Part shown: positions 1 to 56,332 of the stretch, piece after piece
Layout: every line of letters starts with the position of its first letter
Numbering within the stretch: position 1 is the first letter of the stretch
NCBI GenBank assembly: GCA_951406725.2
Contig: CATOCA020000020.1
Location: 9,001-73,000 of the forward strand
Direction of reading: 5' to 3'
Source: Octopus vulgaris
Lineage: Eukaryota
DNA length: 64,000 bases
Position numbers: made by a program

Positions 1-3000
1 CGCAGTACCACCACCGCCCGCTCCCGGCCGACACGGAGATAGAAATATCTCGTATCCGCCGAAAAGGGCTGCGAGTTCCTGCGGGTCGGAGAGCCTGGTT
101 TCACTGATGGCTGCTATATCCACATCATGAAACCTCAGGTCGTTTAACAGGTGACCCTGTTTCCAAGGTGACCCGAGGCCTCTCACATTCAAGCAACCGA
201 TTCTAAGATTTGCCATGTCTCAAGAATTAGGGAAAAAAAAAGGAGAAAAAAGGCTCTACTTACTGTTGTTGGTGGTGGGGGTGGCTCCCTTGTGCTTTTG
301 CACGGGTGCTTCAATAATATTTTTGTAAAGTTTCTGAGAGAAACTTTTCCCTAACGATCCCACATCGTTAGGGAATATTTGTTTTATTTCATTGTACACT
401 GTTTTGTTTATTTTTATTGTGAGAATGTGTGCTGGTGGTGTGTTGTGTGTAGGTATTATGAAATCTGTAATGTTTGTGCTTGTTTTGTTTTTCAAATACT
501 CAACCAGTTCCTGGTTTCTTGTATTCACTGCTGTAATCGTGTCTGTAATTGTGTCTGTGTTTGTTTGTGTCTGTGGTAGTGGCAGTAGTGGTGTCGAAAG
601 TGTTGTTGTTGTTGTTTGTTGTTGTGAGTGTGTGTTGTTGTTGATGTTGTTGTTGATGTTGGGAAGTACTATTTGTTCGTGCTTCCCCTGTAAAACTTTT
701 TGTTTTTTCCTCCTTTTCTTTTTTGGAGGTACTATATTCCATTCTCCTTTGTTGGAATCCGAGCTCGCACAATCCGAGATCTCTTCATCCGGCAAAGGAA
801 TGGTTGAGGGGTCTGCTTCAGTAGCAGGACGAAAAGTTTTAGGTTCCGCCGGTATCGGTGGTGCCGCTGCTCCTGTTACTGTTGATGTCGCTGCTGTCGA
901 CCTTCGAGGTACTGGTGTCGGTGTTGGTTTGGTGGTGGTTGTCGGTGTTGGTTTGGTGGTGGTTGTTGTTGTTGGAGGTGGTGTTGTTCGTCTTGGTGCT
1001 GGTGTTGGTGATGGTGTTGGTGGTGTGGCAGCCTTTGGTTTTTCTTGCTGTTTTTGTTGTTTCTGTTGTTGTTGCTTGTGTTGTTGTTGTTGTTGTTGTT
1101 GTTGCTGCTGCCTCTTGCTATACTCCTCCATTCTCTTTTTTTGAATGGGGCAGTCCCTTTTTAGGTGGCTTTCGCTACTGCAGAGGAAACATTTTGGCTT
1201 TCGCCCCTCTACAATAACATTTAGCCTGGTCCCATCCAGCAAGATGACAAAGTCAGGTATGGCATTGATGTTTTCCTGCTGGATCTGTACCAGCAGTTGA
1301 ATACCCATGCCTGACCAGTTCTTTTCTCGTACCCTCCGAACATTCAGAATAGTGGCAGTGTCCTCTATGCCATAGAGGACAGCCGCCACTAGCCATGAGA
1401 TTTTCTGTTCGGGGGTATTGTGCTTATGGTTATTTTTTGTACCTTACGCCCGAGGTACGTCGGGACGAGGAACAAATGTTCATTTTGCAAGGGCGAAATG
1501 GCGTTTGCCCTTGCAAGCTCCTCTGTTGGGAAGCGAACCTCCACGGTTCCAAATCGCTTCCCTCTTGTCACATAGCTCTTCTGGCCCCAAATGGGCTTCA
1601 GAGCCATCTCCAACTGTTGTGGTGTGGCGTTAAACAATCTTTTAGTTTTCTTTTCGAAGACTTTATAAAAGATTGTTCTTTTGCTTGTTTCTTGTGTGAG
1701 TTGTTGAGGTGTGTTGAGGAAAACACTGTTCCCCTCCTTTCTCAACAAATCTTGTGCCATTTTTATGTCCTCCATTGTAATTTCTACATCTTCCGAAATT
1801 TGCTTCGCAGCAGAAGCAAAATCGTTAGAAGCTTTTACAGTTTTTTGTTGGTTCTTGTCTGTGTTTGTGTCTGTTATAATTTTCTTTACCTCCCCCTTCG
1901 GTACAGCATCACTTGTTGAAGGCAGAGGGGGAAATCAAGAGTGACGTCGAACGCGACGTCCTGGCATGCATTCTCCTTTTGAACCGAGCGCGTGCTCTCC
2001 GGTTCGGAAGGAGGAGCTTTGTTGCCTTTTACGGCCTGAAATGGGTTGTACGTAACCCGTGACGTTATTTTTTTTGTTCTTGTAGGGGGGTGTTGCAAGA
2101 AGGAGGGAAGAGCCAGCAGCTCGTTTTAGTGCCATTTTGTAATGTGTGTGTGCAAAAAATGTCAATTTCAAAAGGATAGACAGTAATTTCACCCCGAATG
2201 GGGCAAAATTTCGCCCAACCGACGAGCTCCGCAAGAAGCCGGTCGGTTTGGCTACAAAAATATTAAAAAATATTCAAGCTTATTAAAAAATTTCCAATAA
2301 AATTGGCACAAAACTCACAGAGCTGATTCACGTACGTCCATCGGCGTCGGAAGGAATAATAATAATAATCAATTCTTTTTTATTGGCCACAAGGGCTGAC
2401 ACGCATGATTACATAAAGGGACAAGACAGGACGAAAGGTTACAAAGGGTTTTGTCCGTTTGTTAAAAAATCGTGTAAAAATCTTTAAACAATGATTATAA
2501 AAAACAATGAAAAACTCCCAAAAGGGGGAGACGTCTCGAAATGTTCCCGGTGGAAAAAACCCTACAAAAGCCAACGGGAGCCTGGTCAAAAAAAGGGGGT
2601 GTAGAGAGTCCCCTTTCTTCTCCTTTTACATTACCTTTTTCTTTGAAATCACAGGCGAAACCTGAGAACTGGTCCATTTATACAGGCCAGTCTCGCACAA
2701 TTCACCCACCTTTCATAAAACTTGCTATCGGACAGCACTTTCCTCTCTAACCTCATCTTCCTTTTCAAGTGAAACTTGAAAAAGTTGATGAGGCCTTGAC
2801 CAAAGAGGAAAGTGTCTGACTTTAGCCCTTTCAAACGAGTCCACCACACGACTTCTTTCGCCACAGCCACAAGGCACAAGAAAACGGCCTCGCCCTCCTT
2901 GTTAAAGGAGGTCGGCGGGGCAATCTTCACTATGGATTCGGCCGATAGTCGGATCCGTCCTACACGTGACAGTAGCTGTTCGACATAAACCCATATTTCA

Positions 3001-53948: not shown

Positions 53949-56332
53949 GCTATGCTGCTGCCTCTTGCTGGCTTCTCCATCACCAACACCTTTTAGGTGG
54001 CACCAAGACGAGCAACATTTTGGCCTCAACAACAACAACCACCACCAAACCAGCACCTGACAACCACCACCAAGCCAACACCGACACCAGGTACCTCGAA
54101 GGTCGACAGCAGCGATCATCAGCAGTTGAATACCCAGGAGCAGCGGCACCAGTTCTTTTCTCGATACCGGTGGAACCATTCAGAATACTTTTCGTCCTGC
54201 TACTGCCGCTCAGACCCGCAGAACCATTCCTTTGCCAGTCGGGGAAGAGATCTCGGATTGTGCGAGCTATGATTCCAACAAGGAAAATGTGATACCTTAG
54301 TGCCTCAAGAAAAAGGTACGTCGAAGAAACAAAAAGAGGTTTACAGTTCATTTTGCACGAAGGGCGAAATAGTGCGTTCGCCAACATGCAACAAGCAACA
54401 ACAACAAGCACACACTCACACAACAACAAATCAACAACAACAACACTTGTCGACACCACTACTGCCACTGGCCACACACACAAATGGGCACACACAGACA
54501 CAATTACATCAATAAACACAAACTGAACCAAAAACCCCAGTGGAGTACTTAAAAAACAAAATCTAGTACAAGACTTTATAGATTGTTCTTTTGCTTGTTT
54601 CTTGTGAGTTGTTGGTGTGTTGACCAACACAAAACACACAAGTTCACACATTCTCACAATAAAAATAAATGCAAAATCATATGATGAAATCAAACAAATT
54701 TATGTCCCTAACGATGTGGGATCGCTAGGGAAAAGTTTCTCGAAGAAACTTTGCTATAAAAACAATGAAGCACCCGTGCAAAAGCACAGAGGCCACCCCA
54801 CCACCAACAACAGTAAGTAGAGCCTTTTACAGTTTCTCCTTTGTTGGTCCCCTACTTTGAGACATGTGTCTGTTATAATCTTAGAATCGGTTGCTTGAAT
54901 GTGAGAGGCCTCAGGTCACCTTCAGAAACAGGGTCACCTGTTAAACGACCTGAGGGGGTTTCAAGATGTGGATGTAGCAGCCATCAGTGAAACCCAGGCT
55001 CTCCTGACCCGCAGGAACTGCAGCCCTTTTGAACCGAGCAGATACGAGATATTTCTATCCACGTGTCGGCGGAGGAGCGGGCGGTGGTGGTACTGCGGTG
55101 TTGGAAGAGGCCTGGACCTGAAAATAAGGACAGTCTTCTTGGATCCGTGAAGGTAAGTTGGTGGTCCTCGACGTCGACAGTAGTGACGGCGGTGCTTTGC
55201 AAGAAGGCCTACGCTCCGACAGGAGCCAGGGCAGCTCGGATTATTTCAAACGTCTGGAAGTTTTCCTGGGAACGTCACGCACTCTAGTACTGGTGGGGAT
55301 TGGAACGCTGTCAATTTCAAAAGGACGAACGATAATTTCACCCCAGATAGGGCAGGGAGCGTCTGATAGGAGGGTGCAAGAGCCTCGCCAACCCTCGGCC
55401 GATTTCAGCTGTCCGGCTACGGTTTTCGACTAGACAACCCGAATGTGCCAATGTGGACTTGGACAAGCCGCATCGGGTCGTCTAGATCGTACTTAGATGC
55501 GTGTTTTCACGTAGGCCAGCGGATAAGGACAGCGTAGGGTGTCCACAATTCCACCTAGTCGAATAATACGGACCACAAATTAGTGATCTGTACGGTCGAC
55601 TTGATGAGCTAAGACAGGGACGGCTACTGGATAGCTGAATGTCCTGATGCAGTATCAAGCTTACAGAGACTGGCTCTAGTTTACTAGCTTAAGCAGTCTT
55701 AGCTGATTGGCCAGTATCATCAACAACAACTGGTGGTTTGCCCTCAAGATGGTCAATTACAGTAGAGTATTCGATTAGGTAATACCGTAGGACTCTAGCT
55801 CAGTTGAACGTGGACCAGAGAGAGCGGGATTGGTGGCTGACGAAACTAGACGGGCATCTTGACACTGGCATTATCGCGCAACCGACGTGTTGGCGGCAAG
55901 GTTGGCCTCGACCAACACTGACGCCAAGCCTGAAAGGAATTCTTTGCGTTGTCAGAGCTATAGGCATTCGCCTTCGCTAAGCGAGGAGGGACTAGAGTGT
56001 TTCGATGGGCCCCGCGTGGCGGAGGCGAAGCAGGCAATTCAGAGCAACCATCTCGGTCTTTTGCGGGATAGGCCCATTGAACGGGCGCGGGTTACCCAGA
56101 AAAAAATTCCAACTGGGCCCGGTACTAAGATCATGCGCTGTTTGTCTAGATTAAGATCAACCATGTTTGGGACAGGCGGTGGAACGGATACCAGCAGTTG
56201 CAGACATGTCGGTGGTGTACCCTTGGACGGACTGCCGACGGGTAGTCACTCTCGGACAGCGAGGCAGACCTTCGTATATTTTACCCCAGTGGGAAGCATG
56301 CACATGAAGAGTTGCACGAGGGTAGATCGCCG

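What the first reader, a model, noticed from the sequence alone, without database searches (positions are those of the whole stretch)
1..53970. Macrosatellite-like array made only of full-length, near-identical, coding-competent Tx1-type LINEs
Seen: at least 10 consecutive same-orientation units, no intervening host DNA, no 5' truncation at any of 9 junctions, and five intact 1144-aa ORF2s differing only at residue 34 (I/V). Known: ordinary L1/Tx1 insertions are dispersed and mostly 5'-truncated. Clustered non-LTR arrays are associated with specialised chromosomal niches (Drosophila HeT-A/TART/TAHRE telomeres, Chlorella Zepp self-insertion, R1/R2 in rDNA). Inference: this is either a self-targeting retrotransposon that builds its own array or a DNA-level amplified master locus. 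It could be a telomeric, centromeric or piRNA-source domain. I know of no described precise Tx1-clade array of this kind.
Basis: partly seen in the sequence, partly recalled or inferred. Interest (0 to 1): 0.85.

Follow-up and report, generated by a model that had tools for sequence, protein, structure and literature searches.

The report
Head-to-tail array of octopus-type LINEs
At least 54 kb of this window is one jumping gene (a LINE retrotransposon) repeated head to tail about ten times, probably because new copies land in the short repeat tail of resident copies, which is a known habit of target-specific LINEs seen here in an unusually clean form.

Summary
The array is real in the sequence. 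There are 8 complete units of 5864-5878 bp plus 2 partial units on the minus strand (1-53981). They are joined at 9 identical junctions: AATAAA signal, (ATT)5-6 tail, then the next 5' end. No RNA gene or other DNA lies between units.

ORF2 (1144 aa; APE + RT + zf-RVT) is intact in 5 of 9 copies, identical except I34V.

- ORF1 is frameshifted in all 10 copies.
- 4 of the 9 minus-strand ORF2s are broken.
- The 5'-most unit (U0) is truncated and chimeric.
- A second, oppositely oriented array starts at 53982. It opens with an old decayed copy and continues with a young full-length one.

Differences between units are mostly synonymous (8 of 12 in ORF2, p=0.002). Some units carry a distinct 5'UTR haplotype block. 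So several replicating lineages fed the array. The chimeric edge units and the invariant junctions show that DNA-level recombination acted too.

Best reading (0.5): repeated target-primed insertion into the regenerated (ATT)n tail, as in tandem R1 arrays, followed by gene conversion or unequal exchange. A telomere-healing origin is disfavoured. Tx1-clade membership could not be tested. The host is probably an octopod. I rate this a new variant of a known kind, of moderate interest.

The parts
1..2354 (-). Unit U9: the 5' part of a young copy (5'UTR, ORF1, start of ORF2), cut by the window edge.
2355..8218 (-). Unit U8, complete (5864 bp). ORF2 is broken by a 5-bp deletion. It carries the 5'UTR haplotype H2 and 15 private indel events.
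8219..14088 (-). Unit U7, complete (5870 bp). ORF2 is intact (8513-11947).
14089..19956 (-). Unit U6, complete (5868 bp). ORF2 has a 1-bp deletion. It differs from U7 by 3 substitutions and shares private 3'UTR variants with it.
19957..25822 (-). Unit U5, complete (5866 bp), used as the reference. Layout: 5'UTR 25822-25604; ORF1 region 25603-23724 (frameshifted); 39-nt spacer; ORF2 23684-20250 (intact, 1144 aa); 3'UTR 20249-19972 with AATAAA; (ATT)5 tail 19971-19957.
25823..31693 (-). Unit U4, complete (5871 bp). ORF2 is intact (26118-29552).
31694..37562 (-). Unit U3, complete (5869 bp). ORF2 is intact (31993-35427) with I34V. Its 5'UTR haplotype is recombinant.
37563..43428 (-). Unit U2, complete (5866 bp). 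ORF2 has a 2-bp deletion. It carries the 5'UTR haplotype H2 and an (ATT)6 tail.
43429..49306 (-). Unit U1, complete (5878 bp). ORF2 is intact (43729-47163).
49307..53981 (-). Unit U0, the head of the minus-strand array. It is 5'-truncated inside ORF1 and chimeric: about 4% diverged from the young units over element positions 1472-2457, then nearly identical to them from about position 2650 to the tail. ORF2 is frameshifted.
53982..58769 (+). Pold, the head of the plus-strand array. It is an old, decayed copy, 5'-truncated at element position about 1330-1343, with many frameshifts. Identity to the young units is 58-94% over most of its length but 97-100% over its last ~600 bp. It ends in AATAAA and (ATT)6.
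58770..64000 (+). P1, a young copy with a complete 5' end, joined to Pold's tail at the same boundary as in the other array. It is cut by the window edge, and both its ORF1 and ORF2 are frameshifted.

Best explanation
This is a genuine head-to-tail array of a young LINE of the L1/Tx1 superfamily in what is probably an octopod genome.

Inferred mechanism: the element starts reverse transcription on an (ATT)n stretch. Every insertion leaves such a stretch as its own tail, possibly as a target-site duplication. Each resident copy therefore offers a fresh target, and new full-length copies pile up downstream of older ones. The principle is that of tandem R1 arrays, where the target regenerated by the duplication is hit again.

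Each of the two arrays in the window begins with an older, 5'-truncated founder (U0 and Pold). Homologous recombination between copies then acted: gene conversion, unequal exchange, or homology-guided joining of the new cDNA to the upstream resident. It overwrote the 3' parts of the founders and probably duplicated some neighbouring units.

Shown here: the anatomy, the protein domains, the selection signature, and the chimeric edge units. Inferred: targeting of the tail, and the order of events.
For: - Anatomy: 10 of 10 junctions (9 on the minus strand, 1 on the plus strand) have AATAAA, (ATT)5-6, then the same 5' end.
- 10 of the 11 perfect ATT-type microsatellites of 4 or more units in the window are these tails.
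- ORF2 has APE (E=6e-17), RT (9e-30) and zf-RVT (1e-8) domains. Its best solved relative is L1 ORF2p (9e-51), against 1.6e-22 for R2.
- Several lineages fed the array. All 8 complete units are distinct (3-38 substitutions per pair).
- A block of 9 linked 5'UTR differences is carried by U2 and U8 and partly by U3, while ORF2 beside it is almost invariant (0-2 substitutions per 500 bp).
- 8 of 12 distinct ORF2 substitution variants are synonymous, against 24% expected (p=0.0022). In the ORF1 N-terminal part the count is 4 of 6 (p=0.025).
- U0's older segment differs from the young units by 14 synonymous and 11 nonsynonymous changes, against 22% synonymous expected (p=0.0002). It therefore comes from an older functional subfamily, not from decay in place.
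- In both arrays the oldest and only truncated copies are at the 5' head. That is what downstream insertion into tails predicts.
- A young full-length copy follows the tail of a decayed copy at 58769/58770.
- Precedents in print: R1 re-inserting into its regenerated target (PMC2718515, passages); Tx1-clade elements specific for microsatellites and for other transposons, and tandem SINEU-3 copies made by sequential insertion (PMC4494074, passages); microsatellite-specific LINEs, including TAA-specific Dong (PMC3812793, passages).
Against: - All 10 5' boundaries are identical, with no extra bases, and the tail is always 5 or 6 units. Copying at the DNA level explains this more simply than ten independent insertions.
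- The adjacent units U6 and U7 differ by only 3 substitutions and share private 3'UTR variants, as after a local duplication.
- The divergence steps inside U0 and Pold prove that recombination acted.
- A free (TAA)13 at 56335-56373, less than 3 kb from young copies, carries no insertion.
- The window holds no solo copy and no 3' edge of an array. The true target, the element's real ends and any target-site duplication are therefore unseen.
- The linkage test between UTR variants within units and across junctions gave no signal: mean r2 0.14 against 0.14, with controls at 0.05 and 0.29.
- As assembled, no copy has an open ORF1, so none can be called autonomous.
Confidence: 0.5

Rival explanations
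1. DNA-level amplification. One or two chance tandem insertions (a seed dimer) were expanded into an array by unequal exchange or replication slippage. Gene conversion from dispersed copies added variants. Retrotransposition played no further part.
For: - The junction boundaries are identical in 10 of 10 cases, with near-constant tails.
- Both edge units are diverged and chimeric, while the interior is homogenised. This is the classic pattern of concerted evolution.
- U6 and U7 are adjacent, nearly identical, and share private variants.
- The model is in print: double insertion followed by unequal exchange (PMC5932611, passages), and amplification of one unique R1 junction in D. melanogaster (PMC2718515, passages).
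Against: - Differences arising in place should be about 24% synonymous, but 8 of 12 are (p=0.0022).
- A block of 9 linked 5'UTR differences beside a nearly invariant ORF2 cannot have arisen by point mutation in place.
- No higher-order repeat of multi-unit blocks is seen (haplotype table).
- The model therefore needs repeated import of sequence from active lineages, which brings it close to the best explanation.
Confidence: 0.3
2. A single event made a concatemer. Either the reverse transcriptase jumped from the 5' end of one RNA to the tail of another during one insertion, or a read-through RNA covering several units was copied. Many full-length units with exact joins were laid down at once.
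For: - 0 of 10 junctions is tail-to-internal and all joins are exact, as expected if a jump happens only at the end of a template.
Against: - No direct evidence supports it.
- Units of several haplotypes, including one decayed unit (U8), would have to come from one event.
- It does not explain the chimeric founders.
- A read-through RNA needs an array to exist beforehand.
Confidence: 0.07
3. Assembly artefact. Dispersed or fewer tandem copies were strung together or over-expanded by the assembler, and the head-to-head join at 53981/53982 is a chimeric join.
For: - The indel load is high: 46 events against 67 substitution columns, 18 of the 46 in homopolymers and 15 private to U8. This indicates a noisy consensus.
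- The inverted join lies inside a low-complexity (CAA)n/(TTG)n region.
Against: - Each of the 8 complete units has its own combination of variants.
- The tail-to-head junction occurs 10 times with different variants on either side, so reads containing such junctions must exist.
- Dispersed copies would bring flanking host DNA, and there is none.
- The plus-strand side of the inverted join is a unique, decayed copy.
Confidence: 0.08
4. A telomere-type array built by addition to a chromosome end, as with HeT-A/TART or GilM/GilT.
For: The copies run head to tail in one orientation. Telomeric LINE arrays are known, including the Tx1-clade element Tx1-1_ACar in telomeric repeats (PMC10088271 and PMC5537684, passages).
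Against: - Double units of the TTAGGG and TTAGG repeats, on either strand, have 0 matches in the window (the motifs are recalled).
- The two arrays point away from each other, so in this arrangement they cannot both have been built at a chromosome end.
- The oldest copies are at the 5' heads, whereas end addition puts the newest there.
- No interior junction shows a 5' truncation (0 of 10), whereas such truncations mark the Drosophila telomeric tandems (PMC5932611, passages) and are reported for some copies in the Giardia arrays (PMC5537684, passages).
Confidence: 0.03

Closest known systems
Tandem R1 arrays in Drosophila rDNA (Stage and Eickbush 2009, PMC2718515, passages; also the R1 case described in PMC5932611, passages)
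   Same: - A target-specific LINE with an APE-type endonuclease forms head-to-tail arrays, because each insertion regenerates its target.
- The units are separated only by that short sequence.
- In D. melanogaster an identical junction was amplified at the DNA level, so both routes are known for this family.
   Different: - R1 belongs to another clade and sits in the 28S gene. Its spacer is a 14-bp (or 33-nt) piece of rDNA, and new copies enter at the 5' side.
- Arrays average two to three copies per rDNA unit in the richest species.
- Here the only spacer is the element's own (ATT)5-6 tail, the polarity suggests entry at the 3' side, at least 10 units follow each other, and there is no rRNA gene.
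Target-specific Tx1-clade LINEs: Kibi (TC)n, Koshi (TTC)n, the crocodilian Tx1 families, and tandem SINEU-3 copies (Kojima 2015, PMC4494074, passages)
   Same: - The same superfamily architecture.
- A documented preference for microsatellites or for other transposons.
- Sequential insertion gives tandem copies that sandwich a target-site duplication.
   Different: - Clade membership of this element was not tested.
- The passages I read do not describe an ATT-specific Tx1 element or a long array of full-length Tx1 copies.
- The target here is inferred, not seen.
Dong, the (TAA)n-specific LINE (PMC3812793, passages)
   Same: The same repeat motif, read on the other strand, serves as target and tail.
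   Different: By my recall Dong is an R4-clade element with a restriction-like endonuclease. The element here has an APE domain and matches L1 ORF2p best.
Telomeric and clustered LINE arrays: HeT-A/TART/TAHRE, GilM/GilT, SART/TRAS, Zepp (PMC10088271 and PMC5537684, passages)
   Same: Head-to-tail arrays in one orientation, built by retrotransposition.
   Different: - No telomeric repeats were found.
- Two arrays lie head to head.
- The oldest copies are at the 5' heads.
- No interior truncations are seen.
Satellites born from transposons by double insertion and unequal exchange (McGurk and Barbash 2018, PMC5932611, passages)
   Same: A tandem of transposable elements with a target remnant at the junction, later expanded and homogenised.
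   Different: That paper reports non-LTR tandems as mostly tail-to-internal, that is, made of truncated copies. Here all 10 junctions are tail-to-head, and the variants show selection.
Hebe of bdelloid rotifers (PMC2861651, abstract only)
   Same: A LINE family whose copies are not 5'-truncated.
   Different: Hebe is subtelomeric and dispersed, and is not described as an array in the abstract.

Membership tests
L1 superfamily (L1/Tx1 group) of LINEs | ORF2 has an N-terminal APE-type endonuclease | tested here: met
   PF03372 matches residues 10-231, E=6.3e-17, above the cut-off.
L1 superfamily (L1/Tx1 group) of LINEs | A reverse transcriptase domain followed by a C-terminal zinc-binding motif | tested here: met
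   PF00078 matches residues 514-759 (E=9.2e-30) and PF13966 zf-RVT matches 980-1031 (E=1.3e-8), both above their cut-offs.
L1 superfamily (L1/Tx1 group) of LINEs | Closer to L1 ORF2p than to other LINE reverse transcriptases | tested here: met
   Among solved structures the best match is L1 ORF2p (E=8.8e-51 over residues 4-861). The best R2 protein scores E=1.6e-22 over the RT domain only.
L1 superfamily (L1/Tx1 group) of LINEs | A separate upstream ORF1 encoding a nucleic-acid-binding protein | tested here: inconclusive
   - An ORF1 region of about 626 codons precedes ORF2, and a 623-aa Octopus sinensis homologue covers both of its halves.
- A CX2CX4HX4C knuckle is visible in the translation, but the Pfam zf-CCHC match is below the cut-off (E=0.046).
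- All 10 window copies are frameshifted.
Tx1 clade | The RT groups with Xenopus Tx1L or the Repbase Tx1 families in a phylogeny | not testable with these tools
   - Neither search returned a protein that a source names as Tx1 or L1. In one search all 62 hits were listed; only the best 120 of 764 were.
- Indirect only: in Table 1 of the O. vulgaris paper, L1-Tx1 is the only L1-type class among the LINE classes listed as recently active there (PMC13282606, passages), and L1-Tx1 is listed as widespread in molluscs (PMC10294476, passages).
Tx1 clade | Preference for a target sequence | tested here: inconclusive
   Every 5' end seen (10 of 10) follows the tail of a copy of the same family. The window holds no solo insertion and no array flank.
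Microsatellite-specific LINEs (like Kibi, Koshi or Dong) | Copies are flanked on both sides by the target microsatellite | tested here: inconclusive
   (ATT)5-6 lies at all 10 junctions. This cannot be told apart from a templated tail, and both founders lack their 5' flank.
Microsatellite-specific LINEs (like Kibi, Koshi or Dong) | Free microsatellites of the target type attract insertions | tested here: not met
   The one free ATT-type repeat, (TAA)13 at 56335-56373, is empty. This is a single site whose age is unknown.
LINEs specific for multicopy RNA genes (R1/R2, Keno, Mutsu, Dewa) | A host rRNA, snRNA or tRNA gene fragment lies between or around the copies | tested here: not met
   There are 0 Rfam matches at gathering score in 64 kb and 0 tRNAs. 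A junction region gave only two weak matches far below their gathering scores, which I take to be chance.
Telomeric LINE arrays (HeT-A/TART, GilM/GilT, SART/TRAS) | Next to telomeric repeats or a chromosome end, in a single orientation | tested here: not met
   The window has 0 matches to double units of TTAGGG or TTAGG on either strand. Two arrays lie in opposite orientations. The test is limited to this window.
Telomeric LINE arrays (HeT-A/TART, GilM/GilT, SART/TRAS) | The newest copies are distal (at the 5' side), and junctions are often 5'-truncated | tested here: not met
   The oldest copies are at the 5' heads, and 0 of 10 junctions is tail-to-internal.
Transposon-derived tandem array homogenised by unequal exchange or gene conversion | Identical junctions, a homogeneous interior and diverged edge units | tested here: met
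   - 10 of 10 boundaries are the same.
- Interior units differ by 3-38 substitutions in about 5.86 kb.
- The edge units U0 and Pold are chimeric, with sharp steps in divergence.

The most novel reading that the evidence does not exclude
The element is a true self-targeting LINE. Its endonuclease and reverse transcriptase recognise the 3' end and (ATT)n tail of its own family. It therefore lives mainly in arrays of full-length copies that it builds itself. These arrays would form large, divergently transcribed, dual-strand domains in octopod chromosomes, and could serve as master loci, piRNA sources or centromere-like blocks. This would be a 'safe haven' strategy not yet described for the L1/Tx1 superfamily.
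Probability: 0.25. Interest if true: 0.7.

Novelty: new variant of a known kind. Interest (0 to 1): 0.45.

Why it matters
If tail targeting is confirmed, an L1/Tx1-type LINE would be shown to make its own landing pad. That would add a clean case outside rDNA and telomeres to the small set of LINEs that build arrays. It would also show one way in which a mobile element turns into a macrosatellite, with retrotransposition and recombination both leaving readable traces.

For cephalopod genomics it flags loci that annotation pipelines may merge or miscount. It also points to candidate source loci for a family that was active recently. The finding does not call for any new kind of mechanism.

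Tried and rejected
- **RNA gene between the units (as for R1/R2, Keno or Mutsu).** Rejected. The window has 0 Rfam matches at gathering score and 0 tRNAs. The sensitive scan of one junction region (19600-20300) gave two weak matches, Entero_OriR (E=0.018) and MIR6146 (E=0.72). Both are far below their gathering scores, and I take them for chance. 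The same scans found no known self-cleaving ribozyme at the 5' end.
- **Telomere repeats.** Double units of TTAGGG and TTAGG, on either strand, have 0 matches.
- **Linkage of UTR variants within units against across junctions.** This could have separated insertion from DNA copying. It had no power: mean r2 was 0.14 against 0.14, with controls at 0.05 and 0.29.
- **Tx1 against L1 assignment.** Two protein searches and the protein atlas returned no protein that a source names as Tx1 or L1, so no tree was built.
- **ORF1 fold.** The structure job was interrupted and the tool then took no new jobs. Pfam and the solved-structure search gave only a sub-threshold zinc knuckle.
- **Twin priming as the origin of the head-to-head join.** Rejected. 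The two arms cover the same part of the element instead of complementary parts.
- **A recent fold-back duplication.** Rejected. U0 and Pold are only 58-97% identical over most of their shared length, reaching 100% only in the last ~100 bp.
- **Other copies of the family.** None could be fetched. The only open DNA collection holds bacteria and archaea.
- **Paper not held.** Arkhipova and Morrison 2001 is not in the library. The Giardia arrays are cited only through reviews.
- **Supplements.** No supplementary file was opened. The transposon library of PMC13282606 might hold this family and its classification.

Full report
**What is in the sequence**

The window has no N. A 6-kb probe taken from it matches ten times on the same strand between 1 and 53953, at 98.5-100% identity and with a period of about 5.87 kb. 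It matches again on the opposite strand between 54627 and 64000. Base composition repeats with the same period.

On the minus strand I set the unit boundaries at a polyadenylation signal followed by a short repeat. The sequence reads ...GGCCAATAAAAAAGAATTG(ATT)n, followed directly by CCTTCCGACGCC.... This junction occurs 9 times on the minus strand, with (ATT)5 at 7 junctions and (ATT)6 at 2. It occurs once on the plus strand, at 58769/58770, with (ATT)6.

The 8 complete units (U1-U8) are 5864-5878 bp long. U9 (2354-1) is cut by the window edge. U0 (53981-49307) is the 5'-most unit and lacks its first ~1210-1229 bases.

Nothing but element sequence lies between units. The window has 0 Rfam families at gathering score and 0 tRNAs. 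A sensitive scan of one junction gave only two weak matches far below their gathering scores, which I take to be chance.

**The element**

Read on the minus strand, each unit has this layout:
- a 219-nt 5'UTR;
- an ORF1 region of about 626 codons;
- a 39-nt spacer;
- ORF2 of 1144 codons;
- a ~280-nt 3'UTR with AATAAA;
- the (ATT)n tail.

ORF2 carries an APE-type endonuclease (PF03372, E=6e-17), a reverse transcriptase (PF00078, E=9e-30) and the zf-RVT motif (PF13966, E=1e-8). Its best solved relative is L1 ORF2p (E=9e-51 over residues 4-861). R2 proteins match only the RT domain (E=1.6e-22). The element is therefore an L1-superfamily LINE.

The narrower label 'Tx1' could not be tested. Neither protein search returned a hit that a source names as Tx1 or L1 (all 62 hits listed, the best 120 of 764 listed), and the protein atlas gave only generic clusters. 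Indirectly, a recent Octopus vulgaris annotation lists L1-Tx1 as the only L1-type class among its recently active LINE classes: 13 families, 421 insertions, 2.29 Mb (PMC13282606, passages). By my arithmetic that is about 5.4 kb per insertion.

The closest ORF2 relatives are an unnamed NCBI protein (74% identity) and a protein of Argonauta hians (68%). ORF1 is 71-73% identical to a 623-aa protein of Octopus sinensis that covers both of its halves in one frame. The host is therefore probably an octopod. I did not try to identify it further.

ORF1 shows a CX2CX4HX4C knuckle, a polyglutamine run encoded by (CAA)n, a Thr/Pro-rich stretch and a basic patch. The Pfam knuckle match is below the cut-off.

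The counts of units, junctions and intact ORF2s are right. U1, U3, U4, U5 and U7 encode identical 1144-aa proteins, except for I34V in U3. Three points were missed.

1. ORF2 is broken in 4 of the 9 minus-strand copies that cover it, and also in the plus-strand copy P1:
   - U0 has a 1-bp deletion and a 1-bp insertion.
   - U2 has a 2-bp deletion.
   - U6 has a 1-bp deletion.
   - U8 has a 5-bp deletion.
   - P1 has several indels.
2. No copy has an open ORF1. Measured against the O. sinensis protein, each of the 10 copies needs two to four reading frames.
3. The indel load is unusually high. Among U1-U8 there are 46 indel events against 67 substitution columns. Of the 46, 18 lie in homopolymers of 4 or more bases, 8 lie in microsatellites, and 15 are private to U8. 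This looks partly like consensus error of a long-read assembly. 'Broken' and 'intact' here describe the assembly, not necessarily the animal.

**The other end of the array**

At 53981/53982 the truncated head of U0 abuts, with no spacer, the truncated head of a plus-strand copy that I call Pold (53982-58769). The two heads lie about 120 bases apart in element coordinates, inside the low-complexity part of ORF1.

Pold is old. Over most of its length it is 58-94% identical to the young units. It has about 150 indels, roughly equal numbers of transitions and transversions, and many frameshifts. Its last ~600 bp, however, are 97-100% identical to the young units. Its tail is followed, at the usual boundary, by a young copy with a complete 5' end (P1, 58770-64000).

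U0 is chimeric in the same way. It has 39 substitutions over element positions 1472-2457 (about 4%), then almost none from about position 2650 to position 5455.

So the window holds two arrays that point away from each other. Each is headed by an older truncated copy whose 3' part has been overwritten by young sequence.

**What the variation says**

The complete units differ pairwise by 3-38 substitutions, and all eight are distinct. The differences are not spread evenly. ORF2 has 0-2 substitutions per 500 bp. The first 80 bases of the 5'UTR carry a block of 9 linked differences in two forms. One form is found in U2 and U8 and partly in U3, and the 3'UTR is also variable.

The selection tests gave these counts:

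| Region and copies compared | Synonymous | Nonsynonymous | Expected synonymous | p |
|---|---|---|---|---|
| ORF2, U0-U9 against U5 | 8 | 4 | 24% | 0.0022 |
| ORF1 N-terminal part, U1-U9 | 4 | 2 | 22% | 0.025 |
| U0's older segment, ORF1 C-terminal part | 14 | 11 | 22% | 0.0002 |

Two of the synonymous ORF2 variants sit at one site next to a G run and may be unsafe. Without them the count is 6 of 10.

Differences that had arisen after DNA copying in place would not be filtered like this. I conclude that the units, and the older part of U0, descend from lineages that were replicating under selection for working proteins. Several such lineages contributed to the array, either by insertion or by conversion.

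Other features are what recombination between copies produces:
- the sharp divergence steps inside U0 and Pold;
- the identical boundary at all 10 junctions;
- the near-constant tail length;
- the adjacent, nearly identical pair U6/U7, which share private variants.

A test that could have separated the two processes compared linkage of UTR variants within a unit with linkage across a junction. It had no power with nine units.

**Mechanism**

I take the most likely history to be the following.
1. An older copy inserted and was 5'-truncated.
2. Its (ATT)n tail, or the target-site duplication that includes it, served as the priming site for further target-primed reverse transcription by the young family.
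3. Full-length copies accumulated downstream, each bringing a new tail.
4. Homologous recombination, or homology-guided joining of a new cDNA to the upstream resident, overwrote the founders' 3' parts and duplicated some units.

This explains three things. The oldest and only truncated copies are the 5'-most in both arrays. A young copy follows a decayed one at 58770. And 10 of the 11 ATT-type microsatellites in the window are junction tails.

The principle is already in print:
- R1 forms tandem arrays by re-inserting into the target-site duplication of resident copies. In D. melanogaster one unique junction was instead amplified (PMC2718515, passages).
- Many Tx1-clade elements prefer microsatellites or other transposons, and tandem SINEU-3 copies in crocodilians arise by sequential insertion (PMC4494074, passages).
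- Other LINEs target microsatellites, including (TAA)n (PMC3812793, passages).
- Double insertion followed by unequal exchange is a general route from transposon to satellite (PMC5932611, passages).

Against my reading:
- The junctions are invariant.
- An empty (TAA)13 lies inside Pold.
- The window holds no solo insertion and no 3' flank of an array, so the true target, the element's ends and any duplication are inferred.

I give this reading 0.5. Pure DNA-level amplification with imported variants gets 0.3. A one-step concatemer gets 0.07, an assembly artefact 0.08, and a telomere-type origin 0.03.

The telomere reading fails on three counts: no telomere-type repeats (motifs recalled), two arrays facing away from each other, and an age order opposite to terminal addition. 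In Drosophila the tails point towards the centromere and the tandem junctions are often 5'-truncated (PMC10088271 and PMC5932611, passages).

**Novelty**

Seven searches of the held library found no description of a long head-to-tail array of full-length L1/Tx1-type copies, and none in a cephalopod. The library lacks most subscription journals, and I opened no supplements.

Array building by target-specific LINEs is well known, so I rate this a new variant of a known kind, with moderate interest.

The boldest reading that the evidence allows is a LINE that recognises its own 3' end and lives in self-made, divergently oriented arrays that may act as source or small-RNA loci. I give that 0.25.

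**What stays open**

These points could not be examined:
- whether the reads support the array;
- the array's full length, since both arrays run off the window;
- its position on the chromosome;
- its expression;
- the clade of the reverse transcriptase;
- the ORF1 fold (the job failed and the tool then closed);

Noticed in passing
window 53940-54060: Two 5'-truncated copies on opposite strands abut head to head with no spacer at 53981/53982. Both are cut within about 120 bases of the same point in the low-complexity part of ORF1. The cause is unknown: it could be a nested insertion, an old inverted rearrangement or a chimeric assembly join.
   Followed up: partly
window 58170-58769: The last ~600 bp of the decayed copy Pold are 97-100% identical to the young units, while the rest of it is 58-94% identical. 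This is a sharp conversion-like step at an array edge.
   Followed up: yes
window 56335-56373 and 56514-56542: A (TAA)13 and a (CA)14 microsatellite have arisen inside the old copy Pold. The (TAA)13 is the only ATT-type repeat in the window that carries no element.
   Followed up: partly
window, ORF1 of every unit (for example 24511-24571, 18646-18705, 53875-53949): The (CAA)n run that encodes polyglutamine in ORF1 differs in length between units (about 20 to 25 repeats by TRF). It is one of the places where the reading frame differs between copies.
   Followed up: partly
window 2355-8218 (unit U8): One unit carries 15 of the 46 indel events as private changes, many of them outside homopolymers. 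It also has the most substitutions. It is either a truly decayed unit or a stretch of poor consensus.
   Followed up: partly
first ~80 bases of each unit's 5'UTR (for example 43428-43350 against 49306-49228): There are two sharply different 5'UTR haplotypes, separated by 9 linked differences. One is carried by U2 and U8, and U3 is a recombinant between the two. ORF2 next to this block is almost invariant.
   Followed up: partly
window 19794-19905 (minus strand; the same place in each unit): The 5'UTR gives a weak match to the Rfam family Entero_OriR (23.8 bits against a gathering score of 80; E=0.018). I take this to be chance.
   Followed up: no
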